Below, in pieces: positions 6,678 to 64,000 of a stretch of 64,000 nt of DNA; the stretch's first letter is position 1; the number at the start of each line of letters is the position of its first letter. The stretch comes from Clostridia bacterium (GTDB taxonomy: Bacteria; Bacillota; Clostridia; UMGS1883; UMGS1540), in contig JAZSLT010000016.1 of NCBI GenBank assembly GCA_045535515.1, positions 11,598 to 75,597 on the forward strand, read 5' to 3'. The translations under genes were made by a program, and so were the position numbers. Below the pieces are notes generated by a model, which was given only the letters and a program-made list of their open reading frames with translations, was not told where the DNA came from and did no database searches.

Positions 6678-7784
6678 GTGAGAGGAAAACGAAAAAATAT
6701 ATGCTTTATCCTTTTCTTTTGCCTTTTGCTTTTTGGTACGAGCATCCTTTGCATGGTAAGCCCCGCGGAGGTATTTTCCCAGAGCGAGCGGCGGGAGCTG
6801 GCGACCTTTCCGGCCTTAACTGCCGCCTCCTTCCAAAGCGGAGAGTTTGCGGAAGGGTTTGAAACCTACGCGACAGAGCGGTTCCCCTATCGCGATACCT
6901 TTCGTGCGATTAAGGCGTGGTTTTCCGCAAATGCGATGGGAAAACTCGATAACAACGGCCTTTTTGTAGCGGATGGGCATATCTCCAAAATAGACAGCAC
7001 AGAAAACCCCGCCATGATGGAGCATGCGGCCGAGCGGTTTTCGTATTTATACCGGTCGTTTATCGAGAATAAAAACGCCCATGTATATCTGGCCATCATA
7101 CCTGACAAAAACTTTATTCTCGCACCGCAAAACGGCTATCCTTCTCTGGATTATGCCGGCTTTACGGAAAGGATGCGCCAAAAGCTTCCGTTCATGACAT
7201 ATATTGATGTGACGGACATGCTGTCGCTTTCCGATTATTATACCACCGACACGCATTGGCGGCAGGAAAAAATACAGGATGTGGCGGTGAAAATAGGCGA
7301 TGCCATGGGCACAGATGTTCGGGCGGACTACGAGGAGCTTACGCTCGAAAACAAATTTTACGGGGTGTATAAGGGACAGCTGGCACTTCCCTTTACGCCG
7401 GATACACTTGTTTACTTGCAAAATGAGGAACTTCGCGGCTCCCGGGTGACCTATTATGATACCGGAAAACCCAAAAAGGGCGAGATGTACAACATGGAAA
7501 AGGCGGCAGGGAAGGACCCGTATGAGATGTTCTTATCCGGCACCACGCCGCTTGTTACCATCGAAAACCCAAGCGCGAAAAGCGACAGGGAGCTCGTCAT
7601 GTTCCGCGACTCCTTCGGCAGCAGCATAGCGCCGCTTCTTTCTGCCGGCTACCGCAAAATAACGCTCGTGGATATCCGCTATATGCAAAGCAGCTTCGTG
7701 GGGAATTTTGTAGATTTTGAAAATGCGGATGTGCTCTTTTTATACAGCACCACGCTTTTAAATAACAGCTTGGCACTCAGATAA
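6678..7784 (+). CDS. DHHW-family extracytoplasmic partner of MBOAT (AlgJ/AlgX-like)
   Basis: GTG start 6 nt after AAGGAGGG. N-terminal signal/anchor, then TTDTHWRQ (D-x-H-W) motif. Adjacent to MBOAT as in known MBOAT-DHHW pairs. Terminator hairpin at 7784-7820. Confidence 0.6.
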   Translation: MRGKRKNICFILFFCLLLFGTSILCMVSPAEVFSQSERRELATFPALTAASFQSGEFAEGFETYATERFPYRDTFRAIKAWFSANAMGKLDNNGLFVADGHISKIDSTENPAMMEHAAERFSYLYRSFIENKNAHVYLAIIPDKNFILAPQNGYPSLDYAGFTERMRQKLPFMTYIDVTDMLSLSDYYTTDTHWRQEKIQDVAVKIGDAMGTDVRADYEELTLENKFYGVYKGQLALPFTPDTLVYLQNEELRGSRVTYYDTGKPKKGEMYNMEKAAGKDPYEMFLSGTTPLVTIENPSAKSDRELVMFRDSFGSSIAPLLSAGYRKITLVDIRYMQSSFVGNFVDFENADVLFLYSTTLLNNSLALR

Positions 7785-7889: not shown

Positions 7890-8516
7890 ATGAAAAGCAT
7901 AACATGTATTATTTTGCTTATGGCGTTATGTTTGCTTGGCGGCTGCAACATGGCGGAAGACCGGTTGCCCATGCCCTCATCCATGCCGACCATAAAGCCT
8001 TCTATGCTTCCATCTATTATCCCCTCTGACATGCCGATAGAGATGGCGACGGAAAGCCCCGTCGCCCTCGGCGCCTTTACGACAGAAATTTTGGACACTA
8101 CGCCGGCGCGCGTCCATAACATAGAGCTTTGCGCGCAAGCCTTAAATGGTCTGGTGGTAGAGGGCGGTGCCGAGTTTTCCTTTAACGGTGCCGTGGGTGA
8201 GCGTACAAGCGAAAAAGGATATGGGGAGGCGCTTATGCTGGTGGGCGGAGAAAGAAAGATGGCCATAGGCGGGGGCGTGTGTCAAATCAGCAGTACCTTG
8301 TACAAGGCGGCAGAAGCGGCCGGCATGGAAATTCTGGAGCGGCACAACCACACCGGAGAAGTACATTATATCGAAATCGGGCAGGATGCGGCCGTATCCT
8401 TCGGGGAACAGGATTTTCGGTTTCGTAATCCGTATGCCGAACCGGTAAAAATTGCCATCACGATAGAAAATACAAAAGTGGGAGCGGTTTTATACAAAGT
8501 TGTAACAAACATGTAA
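7890..8516 (+). CDS. VanW family lipoprotein
   Basis: Lipobox LLGGC; GGGVCQISSTLYKAA matches the VanW domain core motif. Confidence 0.65.
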   Translation: MKSITCIILLMALCLLGGCNMAEDRLPMPSSMPTIKPSMLPSIIPSDMPIEMATESPVALGAFTTEILDTTPARVHNIELCAQALNGLVVEGGAEFSFNGAVGERTSEKGYGEALMLVGGERKMAIGGGVCQISSTLYKAAEAAGMEILERHNHTGEVHYIEIGQDAAVSFGEQDFRFRNPYAEPVKIAITIENTKVGAVLYKVVTNM

Positions 8517-20993: not shown

Positions 20994-21010
20994 GATTACA
21001 AGCACTGCCC

Positions 21011-21160
21011 AAAATCGTCGATATGAATCCTTGCCAGAATTCTCGATATGTCGCTAATGCGACGAGAATTCATATCATATCGAGTTCGACCAAAGGAAAA
21101 ACATATCGATTTTGCGACAGCAAAAATATTGAGCAAACGAAGGGTGCATATCGACATAGT
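21011..21160 (+). repeat. hairpin-array element copy A (TCGATATG/CATATCGA motifs interleaved with short hairpins); candidate structured RNA or 5' leader
   Basis: Two forward TCGATATG units (21018, 21043), each followed by a short stem-loop, then three reverse CATATCGA-type units. Same architecture as the elements at 33.4-33.8 kb and 36.5 kb. Confidence 0.6.
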
Positions 21161-21227
21161 TTTTATTCCGGTCTTGACACGAGCTTTGTTGATAAATAAC
21201 AAGATATTTTGAATGTGAGGAAGGAAA

Positions 21228-23594
21228 ATGAAAAAAAGAGTTTTAGGCTTGTTTTTAGGCATCGTTATAATCATGTCGATTTCAACCATTTTTCCGGTTT
21301 GCGCGTTGGAAGAAGCAAGCGGAACTTGTGGTGATAATGTTACATGGACTCTAAATGACGCCGGAAGACTTGTTATACGAGGGGAAGGTGATATGACCAG
21401 CGCGCCATGGCTAACGGAATACAAGAGTGATATTACGGAAATCAAAATAAGAGATGGCGTGACATCCATTTCTCAGAATGCGTTTAATGGATGTATCAAT
21501 CTGGTGGATGTTGATATTGCTGATACTGTTACAACAATTGGAGGAAATGCATTTTATAAATGTGAAAGCCTGACATCTGTGTATTTACCCGAAAGCGTTT
21601 CGACTGTAGGAGGATGTGCGTTTGGATATTGCACAAACTTAGAGGAAATAAACTTTCCGGATGGTGTAACTGTTATTAGGGACAGCATGTTTTTCCGATG
21701 TGTTAATCTAAAAGAAGTGACGCTTCCGGATACAATTATAGACATCGAACGACTTGCCTTTTATGCCTGTGAGAGTCTGGAGGAACTTCAATTACCAGAA
21801 GGGCTGGAAACAATCGGGAGGGAGGCTTTTGCTTTTACCACACTTGGCGATTTGGTTATTCCTGAAAGTGTTAAAAGCATTACCTACCCAGCCTTTGATT
21901 ATAATAGTTATATCTGCCTGAATGTATATGCCGGAAGTTACGCCTTAGAATATGCGCAACAATATAACAAACCGTATGTGATTATAGAGAGGGAAAAAAC
22001 GCCTGCTGAAAAACTTTGCGACATAATCAATGCACAGACCGCAAATTCTTGCGAAGTTAATGCCAAATCACAAACAGTAACCCTTTTATCCGATGTGCAA
22101 CTGTCAGAAACGATTGCAATACCAACCGGCGGGAGCATCATATTGCAAATTGGCGACTTCAGCATTTTAGGGGCAAACGACCTCGATGCTATCCATGTCC
22201 CGACGGATGCCCTCATAAATATTTATGGTTCGGGAATAATTAAGGGCGGAAATGTTACGGAAAGTGGTTATTATGGCGGTAACGGAATTTCCAGTTCGGG
22301 GGAGCTACTTATAAGCGGTCCAACCCTTATTGGCGGCGATGCCCTTGCGGAATATGGATATGCAGGAGCCGGCGTTGAAACATGTGGCGCGGCGCCAACT
22401 TATTTTACAGAAGGTATAATTCAAGCAGGCGAAGGTTGTTATCAAAAAAGGGTGATGTTTGAAAGACTGAATCTTACGGTTGTTAAAGAAAGTGATGATG
22501 GCATAAATTACACGGTTGCTGCAAATTCGTTTTCTAACAATAAAAAATACTTAAAAGCAATTAAAATTTCAAACAATTTATCAGCAGCATCCAAACTTTC
22601 TGCTTTATTAAATGAAATACAAGCGGACACTTGTAGCATTGTCGGGGATGTAATAACATTAAACAAGGATTTTTCTTGCCCTTACGAAATCTATATACCA
22701 ATAGGCGATGCAATCATACTTGATTTTAATGGACATACTGTTACAACATATGATTTCTTTATTCCGTTCATAATACCTGCGCAGGCAGAGATTACTCTTA
22801 AAGGAACAGGTGTGCTTACCAATAAAGAACAAGAGTCCGGGGCGACATCCGGGATGGGCGGAAATGCCGCAGTACTTCCTAACGAAGGACAACTTACCAT
22901 CGATGGAATTACTGTCCGGGGGGCTGGACTATGCGGAATCAATAATTCCGGAGAATTGACAGTAAGTAGCGGAAAAATAATCGGAAGCGATAGTGCGAGC
23001 GGGAGAGAGGCTATATTTAATAGCGGAACGATATGGATATCCGGCGGGGAGATTATAGGTGGTAATGCTACCCGCGACGGCGGAGATGGCGGAGACGGGA
23101 TAGTCGGGCGTGCGTCAGTATCGCCGGACGGCATATATCCTATTAAACTGCATGGTGGTATATTGTGCGGCGGTAAAGGCTTGGGCGATGGTGAAAACGG
23201 AAGCGCAATCAGCACAAGATTTAATGTGGGTGAGGATTGCATCGCATACGAAAGTGATGATGGCGTAAATTATTCTGTATTAGAGGGTACAAGTTGTAGT
23301 GCGCGTTATCTCCAAATTGCAAACAAAAGCGGCAATGCTATATTTACAAGTAATATAGCATATGATGGCACAAATTGGTCATGTAACCTGCATTTGCATA
23401 GTGACGATGCCATAAGCGGTATTGTCTATGCGGCAGTTTATGAAGATAAACAGTTAAAAAAATTAACCCCATTTTCTGCGACAACACAAATTCCCGTCAG
23501 CCTTGCATGCGAAGAAGAACAAACGATTAGAATCTTCTGGTGGGATTCAAATTTAGAACCCAAAAGTCGAACGGTAGAGATAGAAGTGCAATAA
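21228..23594 (+). CDS. secreted cell-surface protein with BspA-type leucine-rich repeats and Gly-rich beta-helix-like repeats
   Basis: Signal peptide. Repeated units such as IPESVKSIGxxAF and VTSISQNAFNGC are typical of the LRR_5/BspA class. Downstream GG(N/D)G-rich repeats. Gene is AT-richer than its flanks. Confidence 0.65.
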   Translation: MKKRVLGLFLGIVIIMSISTIFPVCALEEASGTCGDNVTWTLNDAGRLVIRGEGDMTSAPWLTEYKSDITEIKIRDGVTSISQNAFNGCINLVDVDIADTVTTIGGNAFYKCESLTSVYLPESVSTVGGCAFGYCTNLEEINFPDGVTVIRDSMFFRCVNLKEVTLPDTIIDIERLAFYACESLEELQLPEGLETIGREAFAFTTLGDLVIPESVKSITYPAFDYNSYICLNVYAGSYALEYAQQYNKPYVIIEREKTPAEKLCDIINAQTANSCEVNAKSQTVTLLSDVQLSETIAIPTGGSIILQIGDFSILGANDLDAIHVPTDALINIYGSGIIKGGNVTESGYYGGNGISSSGELLISGPTLIGGDALAEYGYAGAGVETCGAAPTYFTEGIIQAGEGCYQKRVMFERLNLTVVKESDDGINYTVAANSFSNNKKYLKAIKISNNLSAASKLSALLNEIQADTCSIVGDVITLNKDFSCPYEIYIPIGDAIILDFNGHTVTTYDFFIPFIIPAQAEITLKGTGVLTNKEQESGATSGMGGNAAVLPNEGQLTIDGITVRGAGLCGINNSGELTVSSGKIIGSDSASGREAIFNSGTIWISGGEIIGGNATRDGGDGGDGIVGRASVSPDGIYPIKLHGGILCGGKGLGDGENGSAISTRFNVGEDCIAYESDDGVNYSVLEGTSCSARYLQIANKSGNAIFTSNIAYDGTNWSCNLHLHSDDAISGIVYAAVYEDKQLKKLTPFSATTQIPVSLACEEEQTIRIFWWDSNLEPKSRTVEIEVQ

Positions 23595-39567: not shown

Positions 39568-40233
39568 TTACACGATAGAGGTGATAATACCGTCCTCTAC
39601 CGTTATGGTCTTGTTGTCTGCCACAAAGGTACCGCTTGCGCCGCACCCGATGGATACAGAGCCGCTTTGCGAGCCGATTACAATTCTGTGCCCGAAAATT
39701 TCCATGCCGCCGGCATCCAGCATACGGATACCGCCGATGCGCGTGCCGCTGTAATAAAGGCTTAAGGTATCCTCTCTTCCGTCATTTTCGAGGGCAATAT
39801 AGTCTTTGAAAACATTGGGCGCGATGCGGACATTGGTACCTTCAATTTCCGCACCGGAAATCTTGGCGCCGGAAATGGAGGCCCCTTCAATGTGGCCGGA
39901 AAATACGGCGTTGCCGTCCTCGTCGAGATGGATAGCCTCGCCGCCGCGCGCATCATAAATTTCAAAAACGAAATCGCCTTCGCGGCTTTTGCCGAATACG
40001 GCGCGAAGGCGGCCACTGGCGTCCAGCATCCGGATTTGCGCGCCGTCGAGCGTGGTTGCACCGTCTTCACTTTCTATCTTGGTAAGACTTGTGTTTAGGG
40101 CGGTTACATTCCGGCTGTCCAGATGCGAAAGTAGCCACGAAAGGTTTTTCTGCATCTTCACAATGGCTTCGCTAAGTGCCTCGTTGTCCTCCGAAAAGCC
40201 GGCTAAATTCTGTTCCAGTACAATTTCTGCCAT
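39568..40233 (-). CDS. phage-related structural protein (tail-fiber-like, Gly-rich beta repeats)
   Basis: 221 aa; repeated GxI(E/S)G segments (FSGHIEGASISGAKISGAEIEGTNVRI). Immediately downstream of a terminase large subunit and shares a 10-nt gap with it. Confidence 0.35.
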   Translation of the reverse strand: MAEIVLEQNLAGFSEDNEALSEAIVKMQKNLSWLLSHLDSRNVTALNTSLTKIESEDGATTLDGAQIRMLDASGRLRAVFGKSREGDFVFEIYDARGGEAIHLDEDGNAVFSGHIEGASISGAKISGAEIEGTNVRIAPNVFKDYIALENDGREDTLSLYYSGTRIGGIRMLDAGGMEIFGHRIVIGSQSGSVSIGCGASGTFVADNKTITVEDGIITSIV

Positions 40234-40242
40234 ATAGATTCC

Positions 40243-41568
40243 TCACTTTCTTTTTTTAATATCAATGCTGTTTTCGTCCCGATTATCTAAAAGCTCACCC
40301 GGCGTAAAACGCCCCTGCCGGATTTTAGGCGGAGTGGACAGCGCAGGGCGCGACATCACGGCATAGCGGACCGATTCGGGCGCGTGCGTAATTTCATGGG
40401 GACTGTCGGACGCGTCCTCGGGCGAGTGGGGGTCATACAAAAGCGCAGGAAGGGTTCGTATAATGTGAATACAGTTTTCAAAAAACGAGATTTTCTTTCC
40501 GCGCAAGTATTCCCGCAGTACGCGCCAGCCGGCCACGCGGCGGTTGTCGGCACGAATAAGGCCGCATAAGCCCTTTTCGGCCATAATTTCCACACCGCTT
40601 TTCCCCGTGTCCTGCCGCCGGTTCCATAAATCGGGGGAGGCCACCGTATAGGAAATTTTTTCCTCCGGCGGCGAGAGAGACAGAATTTCCTGCGCCGCCT
40701 CGGAAAGGGTAAGTCCGCTTTTGTAAAGCTCGCGGTAGCAGGTAAGATTGCCCTCGCCATCTACGGCCCACCAGTGACAGGCCGTCATATCCAGACCATA
40801 GTCAAGGCTCCGAAACCGCTTGTGATAGGCAGGGATAGCCTCGGGCGGCCGGACATGTGTCCGGCGGGAAAACTCGCCGAAGAACTGGCCCTCAAAGATG
40901 TCCCAATCCCCATAGAGGAGCGCCCTTTTTTCGTTTTCGGGGAGAAGCATAAGGCGGGAGAGGTAGTCGGCATCCTTTTCCATTAAAAACCGGTTTTCCT
41001 CCACGCGCGCAGGGATAAAAATGCGCGTTCGCTCCTCGCCGAATACCGTAAACGGCGGCGCAGGGGAAATAAATCGCGCCTTCACCCAGCCGTGTCCGCG
41101 GCTGCCGGGATTTGTGGTGCTTTTCATTTGTTTCGGGTATCCGCTCGTGCCGCGCAGGCGGCTGAGCATATATAGGTATTGGTATTCTGTAAAATGCGTC
41201 AGCTCGTCAAAACGAATGACATCATATTCGGCCGATTGATACATCATCACATCCGTATCCGCCGCCAGAAAACCAAATTCAATCAGGGAACCGTTGGAAA
41301 GCGTTAATTTGTGCTTGGTGCTCTGGTACTTATAAAGGGGCCTTGGAATAAGCTCCAGCGCCGTCAGAATGAGAGAACGCTCCAGCGCAGGGAATGAGGA
41401 GCGGAGCAGGAGCTGGCGGCTTTTGGGGTAGCGCATGGCATAGAGAAAGGCATCCACCACCTGCCCGTACGATTTGCCGCCTCCGGCTGCACCGCCGTAC
41501 AAAACCTCGTCGGCCGCGGCCTCGACAAAGGCCGCCTGCTTTCGGGTAATGGAAAGGGTATATTCCAT
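40243..41568 (-). CDS. phage terminase large subunit
   Basis: Walker A GGAAGGGKS near the N-terminus and a C-terminal nuclease-like half; start at MEYTLSITRKQ. No other phage genes adjacent. Confidence 0.8.
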   Translation of the reverse strand: MEYTLSITRKQAAFVEAAADEVLYGGAAGGGKSYGQVVDAFLYAMRYPKSRQLLLRSSFPALERSLILTALELIPRPLYKYQSTKHKLTLSNGSLIEFGFLAADTDVMMYQSAEYDVIRFDELTHFTEYQYLYMLSRLRGTSGYPKQMKSTTNPGSRGHGWVKARFISPAPPFTVFGEERTRIFIPARVEENRFLMEKDADYLSRLMLLPENEKRALLYGDWDIFEGQFFGEFSRRTHVRPPEAIPAYHKRFRSLDYGLDMTACHWWAVDGEGNLTCYRELYKSGLTLSEAAQEILSLSPPEEKISYTVASPDLWNRRQDTGKSGVEIMAEKGLCGLIRADNRRVAGWRVLREYLRGKKISFFENCIHIIRTLPALLYDPHSPEDASDSPHEITHAPESVRYAVMSRPALSTPPKIRQGRFTPGELLDNRDENSIDIKKRK

Positions 41569-41569
41569 T

Positions 41570-41746
41570 TCATTCGACCACGCGGATTTTGACCTCCACA
41601 TTCTGGGCGTGCGGAGTCTCCTCGTCTGCAAGCTTTAAAAGACATTCCGAAACCTTGAGCCGGTCCTTCACATCCGCCGCCTCATCGCGGAGAACAGAGG
41701 TCAGAAAGGCTTGCACTTCCTTTTTGTCGGCTACTTTTTTTCGCAT
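41570..41746 (-). CDS. small phage-associated protein upstream of terminase (possible small-subunit remnant)
   Basis: About 58 aa from MRKKVADKKEVQAFL..., GGAGG 7 nt upstream. Stop is separated from the terminase ATG by 1 nt. Start coordinate is +/-1 nt. Confidence 0.3.
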   Translation of the reverse strand: MRKKVADKKEVQAFLTSVLRDEAADVKDRLKVSECLLKLADEETPHAQNVEVKIRVVE

Positions 41747-41957
41747 GGATTTCACCTCCTTTCTCCCATTAGTATACAGGAGAAAGCATGAAGGGAACAG
41801 GGCAGGAAACAGGCGCAGGAAAAAGGCGGAAAACAGGCACGGCGTCGATAAAGGGCGGATTTTCAAAAATTTCCGCGTTTTGTGAAAATAAGGCTTGATT
41901 TATCCGGTGGAAAATGGTAAAATATTGGTAAATTCATTTGGAAGGATGGTTACAACT

Positions 41958-43660: not shown

Positions 43661-43713
43661 GAATAAAACACAAAAAAGCGCATCCAAAATTCGGATGCGC
43701 TTTTTGCGTGGCA

Positions 43714-44730
43714 TTACGACATCGTAACATGCTTATACATTTTTTCTACCGCTTCGTTCATATTCACGGGGGAGAGTTTAATGTACGGATGTTCGCTTTG
43801 GAACACAACAAAAATCTGATGTGCAAAGCCTTGTCCCATCCAGTCCACTTTGTCAAAATCCAATACAACCTCTTCAAATTTCGAAAGCTGATTACAAACG
43901 CGCCGCGCCTGTGAGCGGGAGACGGGTGAAGTCTCAAAAATATTTTTAAGCGGAATTTGCGTTTTGACAAAGCGCGAGTCCGCATCGGAATATTCGTCAA
44001 AAATTTCTTTGGCCTGTTTTTTGGAATGATTGGAAAGGGACATAATAACAATGGTTCCCTTGTGGTTTGAAAATTCGGGAAAATCAAGCGTCCGGCTATC
44101 GTCATATTTATTTACCGCGAACAACTTTCCGGAGGAATAGATTAAAAAACCATCCATTATCTTGGAGCTGAAAAAGATGCCTTCTCCCGAATGTCTTGTT
44201 TCATCGGTGGTAAGCTTGCCTTTGAACAGTTCGCAAACGGCATCATCATAGCTGTCAAGGTTAAAATGCGTTTTAATCTTTTCAAATATACCTACGCCGT
44301 CATCGATGATAGTAACCACAGTTTCGAGGAAATTGCGCGAAACCGTAATAACTGCGCGCTCTGCCTGCGAATGGTCAATGACATTATTTATCATTTCGCT
44401 GAAGGTGTATTCCCATATACCCTTCACATTCTCGTCTAAATCCGAAATGATGTCTTTCAGATATTTAGAATACGCATAACTGTCATCATCTAAATCTCCG
44501 GCATTTCTATATAAAACAAAGGTGGTTTTCTGATTGATAAGCGCATATTCGCCTCTTTTTAGTTTTTCAATAGTTCCTTGTTGTAAAAGTTTTTTGATGT
44601 ACGAATGAACGGTGGATTCGTTGATGCCAAATGCTTTTTGTACGCTGGGCACAATGCTGTCGCTCTTTTTGCTAATCTTTTCCAGGATATATTGTATAAT
44701 GGCGTTTTTCTTTTCCGCATCAAATTTCAT
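43714..44730 (-). CDS. single-chain winged-HTH / GHKL-ATPase / STAS-like (DUF4325-type) protein
   Basis: N-term wHTH (VHSYIKKLLQQGTIEKLKRGEY). Central GHKL-like region (INNVIDHS...DDGVGIF). C-terminal VLDFDKVDWMGQGFAHQIF resembles STAS domains of the anti-anti-sigma type. About 40% GC against a roughly 58% background. Confidence 0.45.
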   Translation of the reverse strand: MKFDAEKKNAIIQYILEKISKKSDSIVPSVQKAFGINESTVHSYIKKLLQQGTIEKLKRGEYALINQKTTFVLYRNAGDLDDDSYAYSKYLKDIISDLDENVKGIWEYTFSEMINNVIDHSQAERAVITVSRNFLETVVTIIDDGVGIFEKIKTHFNLDSYDDAVCELFKGKLTTDETRHSGEGIFFSSKIMDGFLIYSSGKLFAVNKYDDSRTLDFPEFSNHKGTIVIMSLSNHSKKQAKEIFDEYSDADSRFVKTQIPLKNIFETSPVSRSQARRVCNQLSKFEEVVLDFDKVDWMGQGFAHQIFVVFQSEHPYIKLSPVNMNEAVEKMYKHVTMS

Positions 44731-44790
44731 ATGCACACCTCTTTTATGCTCTATTATATGCTTATTATACAGGCTTATTCAAATAAAGTC

Positions 44791-44874
44791 AAGAGAAACT
44801 TGTTATAAATTGCAAAAAACTATTTAAAAATAAAAACAAACTGGTTTTTATAAAAATTAAAACAAGTTTCTCTT
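44791..44874. repeat. perfect 14-bp inverted repeat (AAGAGAAACTTGTT / AACAAGTTTCTCTT) separated by 56 bp of AT-rich DNA
   Basis: Read directly in the sequence, in the divergent intergenic region between the HTH-GHKL-STAS gene and the L,D-transpeptidase gene. Confidence 0.7.
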
Positions 44875-45023
44875 TTTCAAGGCATGATTTAGGTGAAAAC
44901 CGCGAAGAAAGATGAAACAGGGAAAAACCTTATAAAATGGGAGGTTCTGCCATATTTTTCTTGACTTTTCAAAGGCTTTGTGGTATTATCGAACAAGACA
45001 TAAAATGAGGAGTGAAAAAGAAT

Positions 45024-62967: not shown

Positions 62968-63105
62968 GAGAAAAGCGGCCAGCATGGGCCGCTTTTTTAA
63001 TGGTCTATACCGCGGAAACGGAAAATAGGAGGCATGGAAAAAATTTTTTAAAAAAGTATTGACAAATGTTTTTGTCTGTGGTATTATAACAAAGTCGCAA
63101 GAAAC

Positions 63106-63181
63106 GCGCCATTAGCTCAGCTGGTAGAGCAACTGACTCTTAATCAGTGGGTCCCGGGTTCGAGTCCCTGATGGCGCACCA
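63106..63181 (+). tRNA. tRNA-Lys (anticodon CUU)
   Basis: GCGCCAT/ATGGCGC acceptor, D-arm GCTC-AGCTGGTA-GAGC, anticodon stem ACTGA/TCAGT with loop CTCTTAA, T-loop TTCGAGT, 3' CCA. One T-stem mismatch. Confidence 0.75.
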
Positions 63182-63183
63182 AA

Positions 63184-63227
63184 GAAACAGAACGATTTAG
63201 ATGATATTCTTGATCGTTCTGTTTTTT
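63184..63227 (+). terminator. intrinsic terminator after tRNA-Lys
   Basis: AACAGAACGAT...ATCGTTCTGTT 11-bp stem followed by a T-run. Confidence 0.7.
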
Positions 63228-63251
63228 ATATAAAGTATGTTTTTAAAACGC

Positions 63252-63385
63252 TTGAAATGTTTATAAAATTATGATATAATTATTATGCTACATACTATAC
63301 TTATAATGGTGTAGGTATATTTTTTTATCGCAAAGTGTACGCTATATAGGTAAAAGCGTACACTCTGACACAAACTTTGCGATAA
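63252..63385 (+). promoter_or_regulatory. extended -10 promoter followed by nested palindrome (candidate operator)
   Basis: TTGAAA, 17 nt, then TGaTATAAT (63252-63280). After that TTATCGCAAAGT (63325-36) and its complement ACTTTGCGATAA (63374-85) enclose GTGTACGC (63336-43) and GCGTACAC (63356-63). Confidence 0.5.
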
Positions 63386-63587
63386 AGTATATGTAAGTAT
63401 AAGTGTGTAGCAACCTTATCGTCAGAGCTTGTATGTTTTTCGTGCGTAGCTCTGAAATATGGGCTGCGCATTTTTTTGAAATAATAATGATATAATGCTT
63501 TTAGGACGTAATGAATAATTAACTTTAATTTTAAAACTTACAGTGTTATAATGGAGTTGCTCATATATAAAATATGGAGATATGTAA

Positions 63588-64000
63588 ATGAAAACTTGTG
63601 ATAAAACTAATAAAAATGGTGAGATGAACGTGTCGGGAGATGCTTTTTTTCAACGACTGTCCACAATTTATATTTCAAGCATAGTAAGTTTTTTTATTTT
63701 ATTTGTAATTGATGGCTACGAGACAATTACATTTTATAAGGCAGTATGTTTTTTTGTGTTGACAGGATGTTATGTACTGATTTCAATATTAGGCAGATTG
63801 GAACTTGTTTTAATTGGAACTCGGCGAATAGTACCTTTGCGTACTTTGTGGTTGAAATCACATATTTCTCAAAAAATGATTTTTATTTATTGGATGCTTA
63901 CGGCAATTTCTACATTATTATCAGTCGACATTAAAACTTCATTAATAGGAACTCTACGGTTTGATGGATTTTTAACTATTACATTATATTGTTGGATGTT
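63588..64000 (+). CDS. hydrophobic membrane protein, 5' part only (runs off window), in AT-rich DNA
   Basis: ATG at 63588 lies 8 nt after GGAG. Manual translation MKTCDKTNKNGEMNVSGDAFFQRLSTIYISSIVSFFILFVIDGYETITFYKAVCFFVLTGCYVLISILG... is open to the window end. Roughly 25-30% GC. Confidence 0.4.
   Translation, partial: MKTCDKTNKNGEMNVSGDAFFQRLSTIYISSIVSFFILFVIDGYETITFYKAVCFFVLTGCYVLISILGRLELVLIGTRRIVPLRTLWLKSHISQKMIFIYWMLTAISTLLSVDIKTSLIGTLRFDGFLTITLYCWM

What the first reader, a model, noticed from the sequence alone, without database searches (positions are those of the whole stretch)
43714..44874. Low-GC single-chain wHTH-GHKL-STAS protein with a perfect 14-bp inverted repeat in its promoter region
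A 339 aa protein in roughly 40% GC DNA fuses a winged HTH, a GHKL-type ATPase or kinase-like domain reminiscent of anti-sigma factor kinases (RsbW/SpoIIAB), and a C-terminal STAS-like domain reminiscent of anti-anti-sigma factors. Fusing the kinase and its STAS substrate in one polypeptide, plus a DNA-binding head, suggests a self-contained partner-switching transcription factor. Its upstream region contains a perfect 14-bp inverted repeat (44791-44804 and 44861-44874) spaced by 56 AT-rich bp, a candidate looped operator. The gene stands alone between two terminators, consistent with a small mobile or acquired module; similar HTH-ATPase singletons occur in defence and abortive-infection contexts.
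Basis: partly seen in the sequence, partly recalled or inferred. Interest (0 to 1): 0.5.

Follow-up and report, generated by a model that had tools for sequence, protein, structure and literature searches.

The report
Self-regulated HTH-kinase-STAS orphan gene
This is a real, self-contained one-gene module: a DNA-binding head that very probably binds repeats in its own promoter, fused to an anti-sigma-type ATP-binding kinase domain and a STAS domain lacking the usual phosphorylation site; the family is large, uncharacterised and often phage-borne.

Summary

The repeat is part of a family-wide operator array: direct copies of an 11-16 nt word at a 21-22 bp period abutting or overlapping the promoter, plus a distal inverted copy. 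The word changes with the HTH recognition helix, which argues for autoregulation.

The family is large (at least 6,900 clusters at 90% identity, many phyla) and has no conserved neighbour. It also occurs in uncultivated phage genomes, often between a sigma-like late regulator and terS.

The "kinase plus its own STAS substrate" reading fails at the canonical site. The Ser phosphorylated in the characterised DUF4325 protein VapS aligns with Gln300, which is never Ser or Thr in 335 members. ATP-binding residues and an S-R-S motif are invariant.

Only one terminator was found, not two. The closest known systems are CapK/CapS and VapKSC (2026). I rate it a new variant of a known kind. The output is unknown.

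The parts
43714..44730 (-). CDS, 338 aa (stop codon 43714-43716): wHTH - SpoIIAB-like GHKL - DUF4325/STAS protein
   Evidence: ORF list; Pfam; more than 6,900 homologues of the same length; AF2 pLDDT 95.4
44506..44730 (-). N-terminal winged helix-turn-helix (about aa 1-75; recognition helix about aa 38-50, NESTVHSYIKKL)
43981..44448 (-). GHKL (Bergerat-fold) ATP-binding, kinase-like domain (about aa 95-250). N box E112/N116/H120; G1 D143-G145-G147; lid/G2 G171-K172-T174...H180-G182-G184
43717..43968 (-). C-terminal STAS-like domain (DUF4325; about aa 255-338). Invariant S271-R272-S273 at the N-terminus of helix alpha1. G299-Q300-G301-F302 occupies the place of the canonical phospho-Ser
44736..44742 (-). 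Ribosome-binding site AGAGGTG, 5 nt before the ATG
   Evidence: Read directly from the sequence; conserved as AAAAGAGGTG in the L011, L014 and L034 orthologues
44764..44792 (-). Sigma-70-type promoter: -35 TTGACT (44787-44792), 17-nt spacer, -10 TATAAT (44764-44769)
   Evidence: Promoter scan, 11 of 12 consensus matches; conserved in orthologues
44791..44804 (-).
   Evidence: the same word abuts the -35 in L011, L014 and L034
44836..44849 (-). Degenerate internal direct copy (AAAAACCAGTTTGT), about 42 nt (two 21-nt periods) upstream of the proximal copy; weak
   Evidence: Pattern search, 3 mismatches. The orthologue L034 has three good direct copies at 21-22 bp spacing in this interval
44861..44874 (+). 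Distal inverted operator copy (right arm of the IR); marks the upstream edge of the conserved module
   Evidence: DNA homology to L011, L013, L014 and L034 ends at window 44872-44877
43673..43705 (.). Bidirectional intrinsic terminator hairpin shared with the convergent GGGtGRT gene; not part of the conserved module
   Evidence: Terminator scan (15 pairs, followed by a T run); IR I3; homology with orthologues stops at the stop codon

Best explanation
This is a self-contained, horizontally mobile one-gene module of the phage-moron type, made of its own promoter, operator array and gene.

Inferred with strong comparative support: the N-terminal wHTH binds an iteron-like operator at its own promoter. 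The operator consists of direct copies of an 11-16 nt word every 21-22 bp, that is, on one face of the helix, with the last copy touching or overlapping the -35/-10 elements, plus one distal inverted copy. The 14-bp IR in this window is the proximal and distal pair. Binding is probably cooperative and head-to-tail, and probably represses the gene's own transcription.

Shown by sequence and structure comparison: the rest of the protein is a SpoIIAB/RsbW-type ATP-binding GHKL domain packed against a VapS-type (DUF4325) STAS domain.

Inferred: because the canonical STAS phospho-Ser is a conserved Gln, the pair does not work as a classical kinase-substrate partner switch. Instead it acts as an intramolecular nucleotide- or ligand-sensing switch, analogous to the STAS+GHKL sensor unit of CapK and VapK. 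ATP binding or hydrolysis, or phosphorylation at the invariant S271-R272-S273 motif next to the canonical site, would change oligomerisation or DNA binding and so de-repress the gene.

The operator is found only at the gene itself and no partner gene is conserved. The biological output is therefore most likely carried by the kinase/anti-sigma-like domain acting in trans on a host or phage protein. That target is unknown.
For: Architecture:
- Pfam.
- AF2 pLDDT 95.4, pTM 0.91.

ATP site under selection: N116, H120, D143, G145, G147, T174, H180 and G182 are invariant in 335 of 335 non-identical members.

Operator:
- The IR is beyond chance and unique in the window.
- Upstream regions of homologues from Bacillota to Chloroflexota and Planctomycetota carry repeat arrays.
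- Mean autocorrelation of 37 non-redundant upstream regions peaks at lag 21 (z=9.1) and lag 22 (z=7.9).
- An independent set of 41 viral loci gives z=4.9 and 3.2; the downstream control shows no peak.
- The repeats overlap the -35/-10 elements or the leader in many members.

Specificity covariation between the recognition helix and the operator word:
- NEST with ACAAGT.
- NQ(T/S)T with ACAAAT.
- NQNT with ACGAAT.
- (V/P)ASVYKY with AAGTATATTTTC.
- SRxA(V/I)LxH with TGTTGACAATAA.

Module limits: homology with 75-81%-identical orthologous DNA runs from the stop codon to the distal IR arm only.

Stand-alone character: among 126 neighbours of 36 loci, no family recurs in more than 2 loci. Operator words are absent from the +/-6 kb flanks, except for a duplicated array in L015.

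Mobility:
- Gene GC is below locus GC in every locus checked.
- 62 IMG/VR loci carry the family. About 12-13 of them show the arrangement late sigma-like regulator, family gene, terS, terL, portal; about 17 related loci carry at least part of it. Others lie after tail genes or next to a serine recombinase.
- Phage copies keep their own terminator, promoter and repeats.

Precedent: in CapK, STAS and GHKL together form an ssDNA-activated sensor. CapS (STAS-wHTH) is an autoregulating repressor that binds cooperatively (PMC13373217).
Against: - No experiment exists on any member. DNA binding is inferred from covariation and position only.
- In the window-type clade the good sites lie upstream of and abutting the -35, which would also fit activation.
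- The internal direct copies in this window are degenerate.
- I could not read coordinates of the AF2 model. I therefore cannot say whether the STAS domain docks on the ATP lid as SpoIIAA does on SpoIIAB, or how far S273 lies from the gamma-phosphate.
- Sequence similarity to CapK is limited to the N and G1 boxes (52 columns, E=1.4e-4). Pfam does not call DUF4325 in CapK or CapS. The sensor analogy is therefore functional and is not a demonstrated orthology.
- A loop that only regulates itself needs an output, and I could not identify one.
Confidence: 0.5

Rival explanations
1. One reading: a classical partner-switching unit in one chain. The GHKL kinase phosphorylates the canonical serine of its own STAS domain, as SpoIIAB does to SpoIIAA, RsbW to RsbV, and the Rv1364c kinase domain to its STAS domain. 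This toggles the transcription factor.
Against: The position of the phospho-acceptor (VapS Ser48, and CapS Ser54 one residue along) is Gln300-Gly301 here. Across 335 members, position 300 is Q326/P6/R3 and position 301 is G209/A121/S3/R1/P1. No phosphatase partner is conserved.
Confidence: 0.08
2. An anti-sigma factor. The SpoIIAB-like domain sequesters a sigma or sigma-like activator, for instance the phage late activator encoded just upstream in many phages, or a host sigma. The fused STAS domain acts as a built-in antagonist and the wHTH serves only for autoregulation. It would act as a checkpoint on phage late genes or as a superinfection-exclusion device.
For: The best structural matches are all anti-sigma factors. 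In 11 IMG/VR phage loci a phrog_36 regulator lies within three genes of the family gene, usually immediately upstream. Of the upstream neighbours scanned with Pfam, two (L075, L077) carry Sigma70_r4, and DUF1492 also hits. The family gene is then followed by terS-terL-portal. The window itself has an orphan terL 2 kb away in the same orientation.
Against: Most family members, including all 36 chromosomal loci and this window, have no adjacent sigma-like gene. The terS-proximal position is a common insertion site for morons of any function. No sigma-binding residues could be tested. Strictly conserved ATP-binding residues are not needed for simple sequestration.
Confidence: 0.12
3. A one-gene defence, abortive-infection or toxin-like kinase. 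The kinase domain is the effector and phosphorylates host or phage proteins when triggered. The wHTH keeps expression low through tight autorepression, as antitoxin HTHs and AbiEi do.
For: Rapid co-diversification of the HTH and operator and own-promoter insulation are typical of selfish or immunity modules. The gene is carried by prophages at moron positions. In L001/L034 the adjacent island holds HEPN/MNT and PBECR4 genes, and in L014 an IS sits at the same spot. The DUF4325/GHKL pair acts in the VapKSC anti-phage system. Weak AbiEi profile hits cover the N-terminus (E=1.8e-5).
Against: There is no match to any PADLOC system beyond the HTH. Neighbours show only scattered single hits to promiscuous models. 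Many copies sit among housekeeping genes such as rplM-rpsI, ribF-truB and EF-Tu. Longer variants carry no recognisable effector domain.
Confidence: 0.15
4. An ordinary one-component transcription factor with a distant regulon. The repeats at its own promoter are only the autoregulatory subset.
For: Only 64 kb of this genome and +/-6 kb of the other loci could be searched. In L015 a second copy of the array lies in front of the next gene, a DtxR-family regulator followed by an ABC transporter. L019 has a partial second copy.
Against: Operator words are otherwise confined to the gene's own upstream region. Operator specificity changes between close clades while genomic contexts are unrelated, which fits poorly with a conserved regulon. 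The family is present in phage genomes.
Confidence: 0.1
5. The iterons plus the wHTH protein are a replication-initiator or centromere-binding module, as with Rep/iterons or ParR/TubR-type centromeres.
For: Direct repeats at a 21-22 bp period, together with an inverted copy at the promoter of a wHTH gene, mimic iteron plasmids and type II/III partition sites. The comparison with those systems is from my own knowledge.
Against: tblastn finds no homologue in 72,556 plasmids. Copies are chromosomal or in integrated-type phage genomes. The repeats coincide with core promoter elements. No Rep, ParA, ParM or TubZ partner is present.
Confidence: 0.02

Closest known systems
CapK (HTH-STAS-GHKL kinase) + CapS (STAS-wHTH repressor), Chambers et al., EMBO J 2026 (PMC13373217)
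   Same: The same three domain types are present. CapK has an anti-sigma-type GHKL kinase next to a STAS domain in one chain, and the two together form the signal (ssDNA) sensor. CapS is a wHTH repressor that binds its own promoter cooperatively and autoregulates. The N-box and G1 motifs align (FSELIGNVRDHSES...DSGLGI against FSEMINNVIDHSQA...DDGVGI).
   Different: CapK/CapS is two proteins; this is one. The domain order differs (HTH-STAS-GHKL and STAS-wHTH against wHTH-GHKL-STAS). CapS has an invariant phospho-Ser54, whereas the equivalent here is Gln/Gly. In 348 of 443 cases capKS is followed by a known or predicted immune operon; here there is no downstream operon or conserved neighbour. 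Sequence similarity is marginal.
VapK-VapS-VapC toxin-antitoxin system (same paper); VapS is a DUF4325 STAS antitoxin
   Same: VapS matches Pfam DUF4325 (E=2.7e-17), the same STAS subfamily as the C-terminal domain here (E=1.8e-14). It aligns over 59 columns including the LDF...F core and works together with a SpoIIAB-like GHKL kinase.
   Different: VapS is a free 116-aa protein phosphorylated on Ser48. Here the domain is fused and has Gln at that position. There is no PIN/VapC toxin nearby, and the wHTH is absent from VapK and VapS.
SpoIIAB-SpoIIAA and RsbW-RsbV partner-switching modules
   Different: There is no separate sigma factor or antagonist gene and no phosphorylatable Ser. The domains are fused to a DNA-binding domain. 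The module is mobile and phage-borne, not part of a sporulation or stress operon.
Rv1364c of Mycobacterium tuberculosis (multidomain RsbU-RsbW-RsbV-type fusion)
   Different: It contains sensor and PP2C phosphatase domains, has no wHTH, and its STAS domain is a real phospho-acceptor. These three points are from my own knowledge and were not tested here.
Iteron or tandem-repeat binding wHTH autoregulators (AbiEi antitoxin; plasmid RepA; ParR/TubR centromere binders)
   Same: The layout is the same: a wHTH gene preceded by repeated sites at about two helical turns that overlap its own promoter. Specificity diverges rapidly between variants. Weak AbiEi profile hits are found.
   Different: There is no AbiEii, Rep or motor partner, no homologue on plasmids, and the C-terminal domains are unrelated.

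Membership tests
Pfam PF14213 DUF4325 (STAS-like) | Match to the family HMM above the gathering score | tested here: met
   53.7 bits against a cut-off of 23, E=1.8e-14, residues 274-328
Pfam PF02518 HATPase_c (GHKL) | Match above the gathering score and intact N, G1 and G2 ATP-binding motifs | tested here: met
   28.8 bits against 26.4. N116, D143, G145, G147, H180 and G182 are invariant in 335 of 335 members
Anti-sigma factor Ser kinases (SpoIIAB/RsbW) | Compact Bergerat fold closest to SpoIIAB/RsbW | tested here: met
Anti-sigma factor Ser kinases (SpoIIAB/RsbW) | Cognate STAS partner with a phosphorylatable Ser/Thr at the N-cap of helix alpha2 | tested here: not met
   The equivalent residues are G299-Q300-G301. 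There is no Ser or Thr at position 300 in 335 members, and Ser at position 301 in 3
Anti-sigma factor Ser kinases (SpoIIAB/RsbW) | Binds and inhibits a sigma factor; encoded with it | tested here: inconclusive
   There is no sigma gene next to the window copy or the 36 chromosomal loci. A sigma70_r4-like late regulator is adjacent in a subset of phage loci. Binding cannot be tested with these tools
CapK | HTH-STAS-GHKL domain order and clear sequence homology to CapK | tested here: not met
   The order here is wHTH-GHKL-STAS. hhalign covers only 52 columns of the N/G1 boxes at probability 53%
CapK | Immediately followed by capS and usually an immune operon | tested here: not met
   There is no conserved downstream gene. 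The window neighbours are GGGtGRT and YkuD
CapS | STAS-wHTH order with an invariant phospho-Ser (S54) | tested here: not met
   The wHTH is N-terminal and separated from the STAS domain by the GHKL domain. Only the wHTH aligns. The Ser is absent
VapKSC | Three-gene operon of VapK, VapS (DUF4325, Ser48) and VapC (PIN) | tested here: not met
   DUF4325 is shared, but Ser48 aligns with Gln300, and there is no PIN gene among the neighbours I identified and no recurrent partner
AbiE (AbiEi antitoxin + AbiEii NTase) | AbiEi wHTH with its C-terminal antitoxin domain and an adjacent AbiEii nucleotidyltransferase | tested here: not met
   Only weak PADLOC AbiEi hits over the N-terminus (best E=1.8e-5). 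There is no adjacent NTase in the window
Autoregulated operator-binding wHTH repressors (functional class) | Specific repeated sites overlapping the protein's own promoter, with specificity covarying with the recognition helix | tested here: met
   Physical binding is not testable with these tools

The most novel reading that the evidence does not exclude
This would be a previously unrecognised class of single-protein, phage-borne switch. A wHTH-tethered anti-sigma-type kinase senses a nucleotide or nucleic-acid signal through a catalytically 'blind' STAS domain. It then acts in trans, either by sequestering or phosphorylating the sigma-like late activator of phages (a late-gene checkpoint or superinfection exclusion) or by phosphorylating host targets (a one-gene abortive-infection kinase). 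Its iteron-like operators would define orthogonal 'immunity groups'.
Probability: 0.15. Interest if true: 0.75.

Novelty: new variant of a known kind. Interest (0 to 1): 0.55.

Why it matters
GHKL-kinase/STAS pairs are the core of bacterial partner-switching. In 2026 they were also shown to control anti-phage immune operons (CapK/CapS) and a toxin-antitoxin system (VapKSC).

This family packs the kinase-like domain, the STAS domain and the DNA-binding domain into one 338-aa chain, and it has replaced the phospho-acceptor with Gln. It is abundant: at least 6,900 clusters at 90% identity and 644 clusters at 50% identity with E<=1e-30. It occurs across at least seven phyla and in gut and rumen Clostridia phages. 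No member has been studied.

It is an easy experimental target. One gene and a 150-bp operator would show how a STAS-GHKL unit can signal without the canonical phosphorylation. The natural set of covarying HTH-operator pairs could also serve as orthogonal regulators. If the trans target proves to be a phage late activator or a host protein, this would add a new kind of phage-encoded regulatory or immunity device.

Tried and rejected
1. Sequence search of the PDB with the protein and with the 75-sequence profile. Only generic histidine-kinase, GyrB and wHTH hits appeared, with no STAS relative.
2. tblastn against INPHARED phages and PLSDB plasmids gave no match. BFVD fold search gave no full-length viral match. 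The phage link therefore rests on IMG/VR contigs whose terS, terL, portal, RusA and Rep genes I verified with PHROGs.
3. The afdb50 fold library was not available.
4. PADLOC on the protein gave only HTH-level AbiEi, CARF and Csa3 hits. PADLOC on 94 neighbours gave scattered single hits to promiscuous models. I treat this as inconclusive, not as evidence for a defence island.
5. All-against-all BLAST of 126 chromosomal neighbours found no recurrent partner.
6. Pfam on 10 longer family members found no extra effector domain, apart from one RHS-repeat N-terminus that may be a gene-call fusion.
7. A search for further operator copies found none beyond chance in the 64-kb window and none in the +/-6 kb of 50 loci, except the L015 duplicate.
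8. The one metagenome scan, with the 16-mer GAGAAACTTGTTTTAA, returned 120 hits. None was next to a family gene or paired with a second copy, so they are chance matches. The pattern was too short for that collection and the scan was wasted.
9. The idea that the repeats are a replication origin or centromere was rejected (see rival explanations).
10. The idea that the IR forms an RNA element was rejected. It lies upstream of the -35, and the divergent gene is transcribed away from it.
11. The count of repeated 11-mers against mononucleotide shuffles was not discriminating in this AT-rich DNA. The lag autocorrelation was.
Full report
**1. What is there**

Window 43714-44736 on the minus strand is an ORF of 340 aa from GTG. 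The ATG at 44730 gives 338 aa. It is preceded by AGAGGTG at a 5-nt spacing, and all homologues begin with the same MKF/MRF start.

The gene has 39.7% GC in a 49.9% GC window.

Pfam gives DUF4325 (STAS-like; residues 274-328, E=1.8e-14) and HATPase_c (109-211; 28.8 bits against a cut-off of 26.4). A series of weak winged-HTH models covers residues 8-64.

- For the C-terminal domain: RsbV, RsbS and SLC26 STAS domains.
- For the N-terminus: wHTH proteins.

**2. The inverted repeat and what it belongs to**

The perfect 14-bp arms are at 44791-44804 and 44861-44874. Only 3 of 1000 dinucleotide-preserving shuffles of the 275-bp intergenic region give a perfect IR that long. The 12-mer AACAAGTTTCTC occurs nowhere else in the 64-kb window.

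A near-consensus promoter (TTGACT, 17 nt, TATAAT; 44792-44764) lies directly downstream of the proximal arm. The arm overlaps the -35 hexamer by 2 nt.

The IR is the visible part of a larger feature conserved across the family. In the orthologue L034/L001 (77% protein identity) the same word occurs as one distal inverted copy plus three direct copies spaced 22 and 21 bp apart. The last copy abuts the -35.

Other clades have the same layout with a different word:
- AACAAATAACT in L009.
- AA(A/G)CGAATTTC in L015.
- TAAAACGAATAA in L020.
- TAAAACAAATAA in L026/L027.
- AAGTATATTTTCT in L033/L036.
- TGTT(G/T)ACAATAA in the Chloroflexota and Pseudomonadota members. There the repeats coincide with the -35 and -10 hexamers themselves.

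Averaged over 37 non-redundant upstream regions, self-similarity peaks sharply at lags 21 (z=9.1) and 22 (z=7.9). An independent set of 41 non-redundant IMG/VR loci gives z=4.9 and 3.2. Regions downstream of the gene show no such peak.

The repeat word tracks the start of the predicted recognition helix:
- NEST goes with ACAAGT.
- NQ(T/S)T goes with ACAAAT.
- NQNT goes with ACGAAT.
- (V/P)ASVYKY goes with AAGTATATTTTC.
- SRxA(V/I)LxH goes with TGTTGACAATAA.

I take this covariation, together with the position on the core promoter, as strong indirect evidence that the protein binds these sites and regulates itself. Because sites overlap the -35/-10 elements or the leader in many members, the regulation is most probably repression. 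In this window the two internal direct copies are degenerate.

**3. Limits of the module and its surroundings**

DNA homology between the window and the orthologous loci L011, L013, L014 and L034 (75-81% identity) runs from the stop codon (43714-43724) to 44872-44877. That is exactly to the distal IR arm, and it stops there.

Only one terminator-like hairpin is found (43673-43705). It is shared with the convergent GGGtGRT gene and lies outside the conserved unit. The claim of two terminators is not confirmed for this copy.

The flanking genes are a NifU-like/GGGtGRT pair, an L,D-transpeptidase (divergent) and a ROK regulator.

**4. The family**

The word-indexed search returned 6,938 clusters at 90% identity with E<=1e-3, nearly all 335-345 aa long. 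The scored set was capped at 8,000 candidates. The exhaustive search of 50%-identity representatives found 2,160 hits at E<=1e-3, of which 644 had E<=1e-30.

Full-length members occur in Bacillota (Oscillospiraceae, Lachnospiraceae), Chloroflexota, Planctomycetota, Bacteroidota, Fibrobacterota, Pseudomonadota and Actinomycetota. Source annotations say only 'DUF4325 domain-containing protein' or 'anti-sigma regulatory factor/predicted transcriptional regulator'.

Neighbourhoods differ from locus to locus. Among 126 neighbours of 36 non-redundant loci, no protein family recurs in more than two loci. Operator words are confined to the gene's own upstream region, with one exception: L015 has a duplicated array in front of the next gene. 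Gene GC is lower than locus GC in every locus checked.

The family is absent from INPHARED phages, PLSDB plasmids and BFVD. However, 62 IMG/VR viral contigs carry it.

- In about 17 related contigs the gene lies at or near the head of the packaging genes. The full arrangement, preceded by a small late regulator (phrog_36; Sigma70_r4/DUF1492 in two of the ten upstream neighbours I scanned with Pfam) and followed by terS, terL, portal and minor head protein, is seen in about 12-13 of them. RusA and replication-initiator genes lie further upstream.
- Another group lies after the tape-measure and tail genes.
- Some copies are next to a serine recombinase.

Phage copies keep their own upstream terminator, promoter and repeats. 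This is the signature of a moron, an independently transcribed accessory gene.

The window itself has an orphan terminase large-subunit gene 2 kb away in the same orientation.

**5. Does the kinase-and-substrate idea hold?**

The nucleotide-binding residues are invariant in 335 non-identical members: E112 (332 of 335), N116, H120, D143, G145, G147, T174, H180 and G182. ATP binding is therefore under selection.

The STAS domain belongs to the same Pfam family as VapS, which I confirmed from the published sequence (E=2.7e-17). VapS is the antitoxin that the GHKL kinase VapK phosphorylates on Ser48 (PMC13373217). The profile alignment puts VapS Ser48 opposite Gln300 of the window protein. By inspection, CapS Ser54 falls on position 301.

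Position 300 is Q326/P6/R3 and position 301 is G209/A121/S3/R1/P1. The canonical acceptor is therefore absent across the family, and the classical self-phosphorylating partner switch is contradicted at that site.

What is conserved instead is S271-R272-S273 (329, 335 and 335 of 335). In the model's secondary structure it sits at the N-terminus of STAS helix alpha1. In the STAS fold, alpha1 is adjacent to the N-terminus of alpha2 and lies on the kinase-binding face of SpoIIAA. This last point is from my knowledge of the SpoIIAA-SpoIIAB structures and was not tested here.

The motif could be an alternative acceptor or a phosphate-binding site. I could not read the model's coordinates to measure it.

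**6. Most likely mechanism**

*Shown:*
- A three-domain chain with a SpoIIAB-like ATP-binding domain and a VapS-type STAS domain lacking the acceptor Ser.
- An own promoter with a conserved, helix-phased repeat array that covaries with the HTH.
- No conserved partner.
- Carriage by phages.

*Inferred:*
- The wHTH binds the array cooperatively, head-to-tail at two helical turns per protomer, with the distal inverted copy closing the array. This represses the gene.
- The GHKL-STAS unit acts as an intramolecular sensor, as the STAS+GHKL unit of CapK and VapK does for ssDNA. It changes DNA binding or oligomerisation through ATP binding or hydrolysis, or through phosphorylation at the SRS motif.
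- The biologically relevant output is exerted in trans by the kinase/anti-sigma-like domain.

I give the DNA-binding and autoregulation step about 0.85, the sensor-switch step about 0.5, and I regard the output as open. Overall confidence is 0.5.

Rival explanations and what would refute them are listed separately. They are:
- an anti-sigma factor against a phage late activator;
- a one-gene defence kinase;
- an ordinary regulator with a distant regulon;
- a replicon or centromere;

**7. Comparison with what is known**

The only literature that bears on this architecture is the 2026 CapK/CapS/VapKSC paper. 'DUF4325' appears in three papers, each only as an annotation in a table.

The window protein works with the same parts, but it fails the membership tests for CapK (domain order, adjacent capS, homology limited to 52 columns), CapS and VapS (no acceptor Ser, no PIN partner), SpoIIAB/RsbW (no phosphorylatable antagonist, no sigma gene) and AbiEi (no AbiEii). 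It is a bona fide member of Pfam DUF4325 and HATPase_c.

I therefore file it as a new variant of a known kind: an uncharacterised, widespread, single-chain relative of GHKL-STAS signalling pairs.

**8. Verdict**

The interpretation needs three corrections:
- there is no canonical phospho-site;
- the operator is an iteron-like array, not a simple two-site loop;
- there is one terminator, not two.

Interest is moderate to fairly high (0.55). The family is abundant, phage-linked, unstudied and directly testable. Its parts are familiar, however, and its biological output remains unknown.

Noticed in passing
window 40243-41631 (-), with 41570-41866 (-) and 39568-40233 (-): An orphan phage terminase large-subunit gene (Terminase_3; phrog_979, E=7e-48) sits among host genes (AsnA, MatE, GGGtGRT). 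It looks like a prophage remnant. It lies 2 kb downstream of the family gene in the same orientation. This echoes the order family gene, terS, terL seen in IMG/VR phages.
   Followed up: partly
window 43661-43713; L014:5952-7358; L001/L034:7015-9890: The short gap between the family gene and the convergent GGGtGRT gene is an insertion hotspot in related genomes. L014 has an IS3-family transposase there. L001/L034 have a tRNA_anti-like gene, an HTH_3 gene, a HepT/MNT toxin-antitoxin pair and a PBECR4 gene there.
   Followed up: partly
L009:5801-5839 and 7029-7067; L011:5677-5774 and 7050-7147 (also L013); L043:5640-5751 and 7075-7186: In some homologue loci the module is bracketed by direct repeats of flanking sequence. 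L009 has a 39-bp terminator hairpin at 100% identity. L011/L013 have about 98-150 bp. L043 has 112 bp at 87.5% identity. This may be an insertion scar or a duplicated insulating terminator. It is not seen in the window copy.
   Followed up: partly
L015:2806-2862 (downstream of the family gene, upstream of a DtxR-family gene); L019 about 7034-7065: A second copy of the operator array (55 bp, 96% identical) lies in front of the next gene. That gene is a Fe_dep_repress regulator, followed by a membrane protein and an ABC transporter. This is the only hint of a target other than the gene itself.
   Followed up: partly
window 44785-44798 and 44955-44968: The promoter of the family gene and the divergent promoter of the L,D-transpeptidase gene share TTT(C/T)TCTTGACTTT around their -35 hexamers, as a 14-nt inverted pair at 93% complementarity. 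This may be coincidence, or the half-word TTTCTCTT may be used at both promoters.
   Followed up: no
P0256 (684 aa, metagenomic): One family member carries an N-terminal extension of about 330 aa with an RHS repeat in front of the complete wHTH-GHKL-STAS unit. It is either a gene-call fusion or a polymorphic-toxin context.
   Followed up: no
window protein residues 16-238: It matches PHROG family phrog_3364 (unknown function, E=9e-10). A related wHTH+GHKL phage protein family therefore already exists in PHROGs without annotation.
   Followed up: no
window 21001-23000 and 63001-64000: These are further low-GC stretches (0.40-0.42 and 0.32) in a window of about 50% GC. The first overlaps a 788-aa ORF (21228-23594, +). 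They may be other acquired segments.
   Followed up: no
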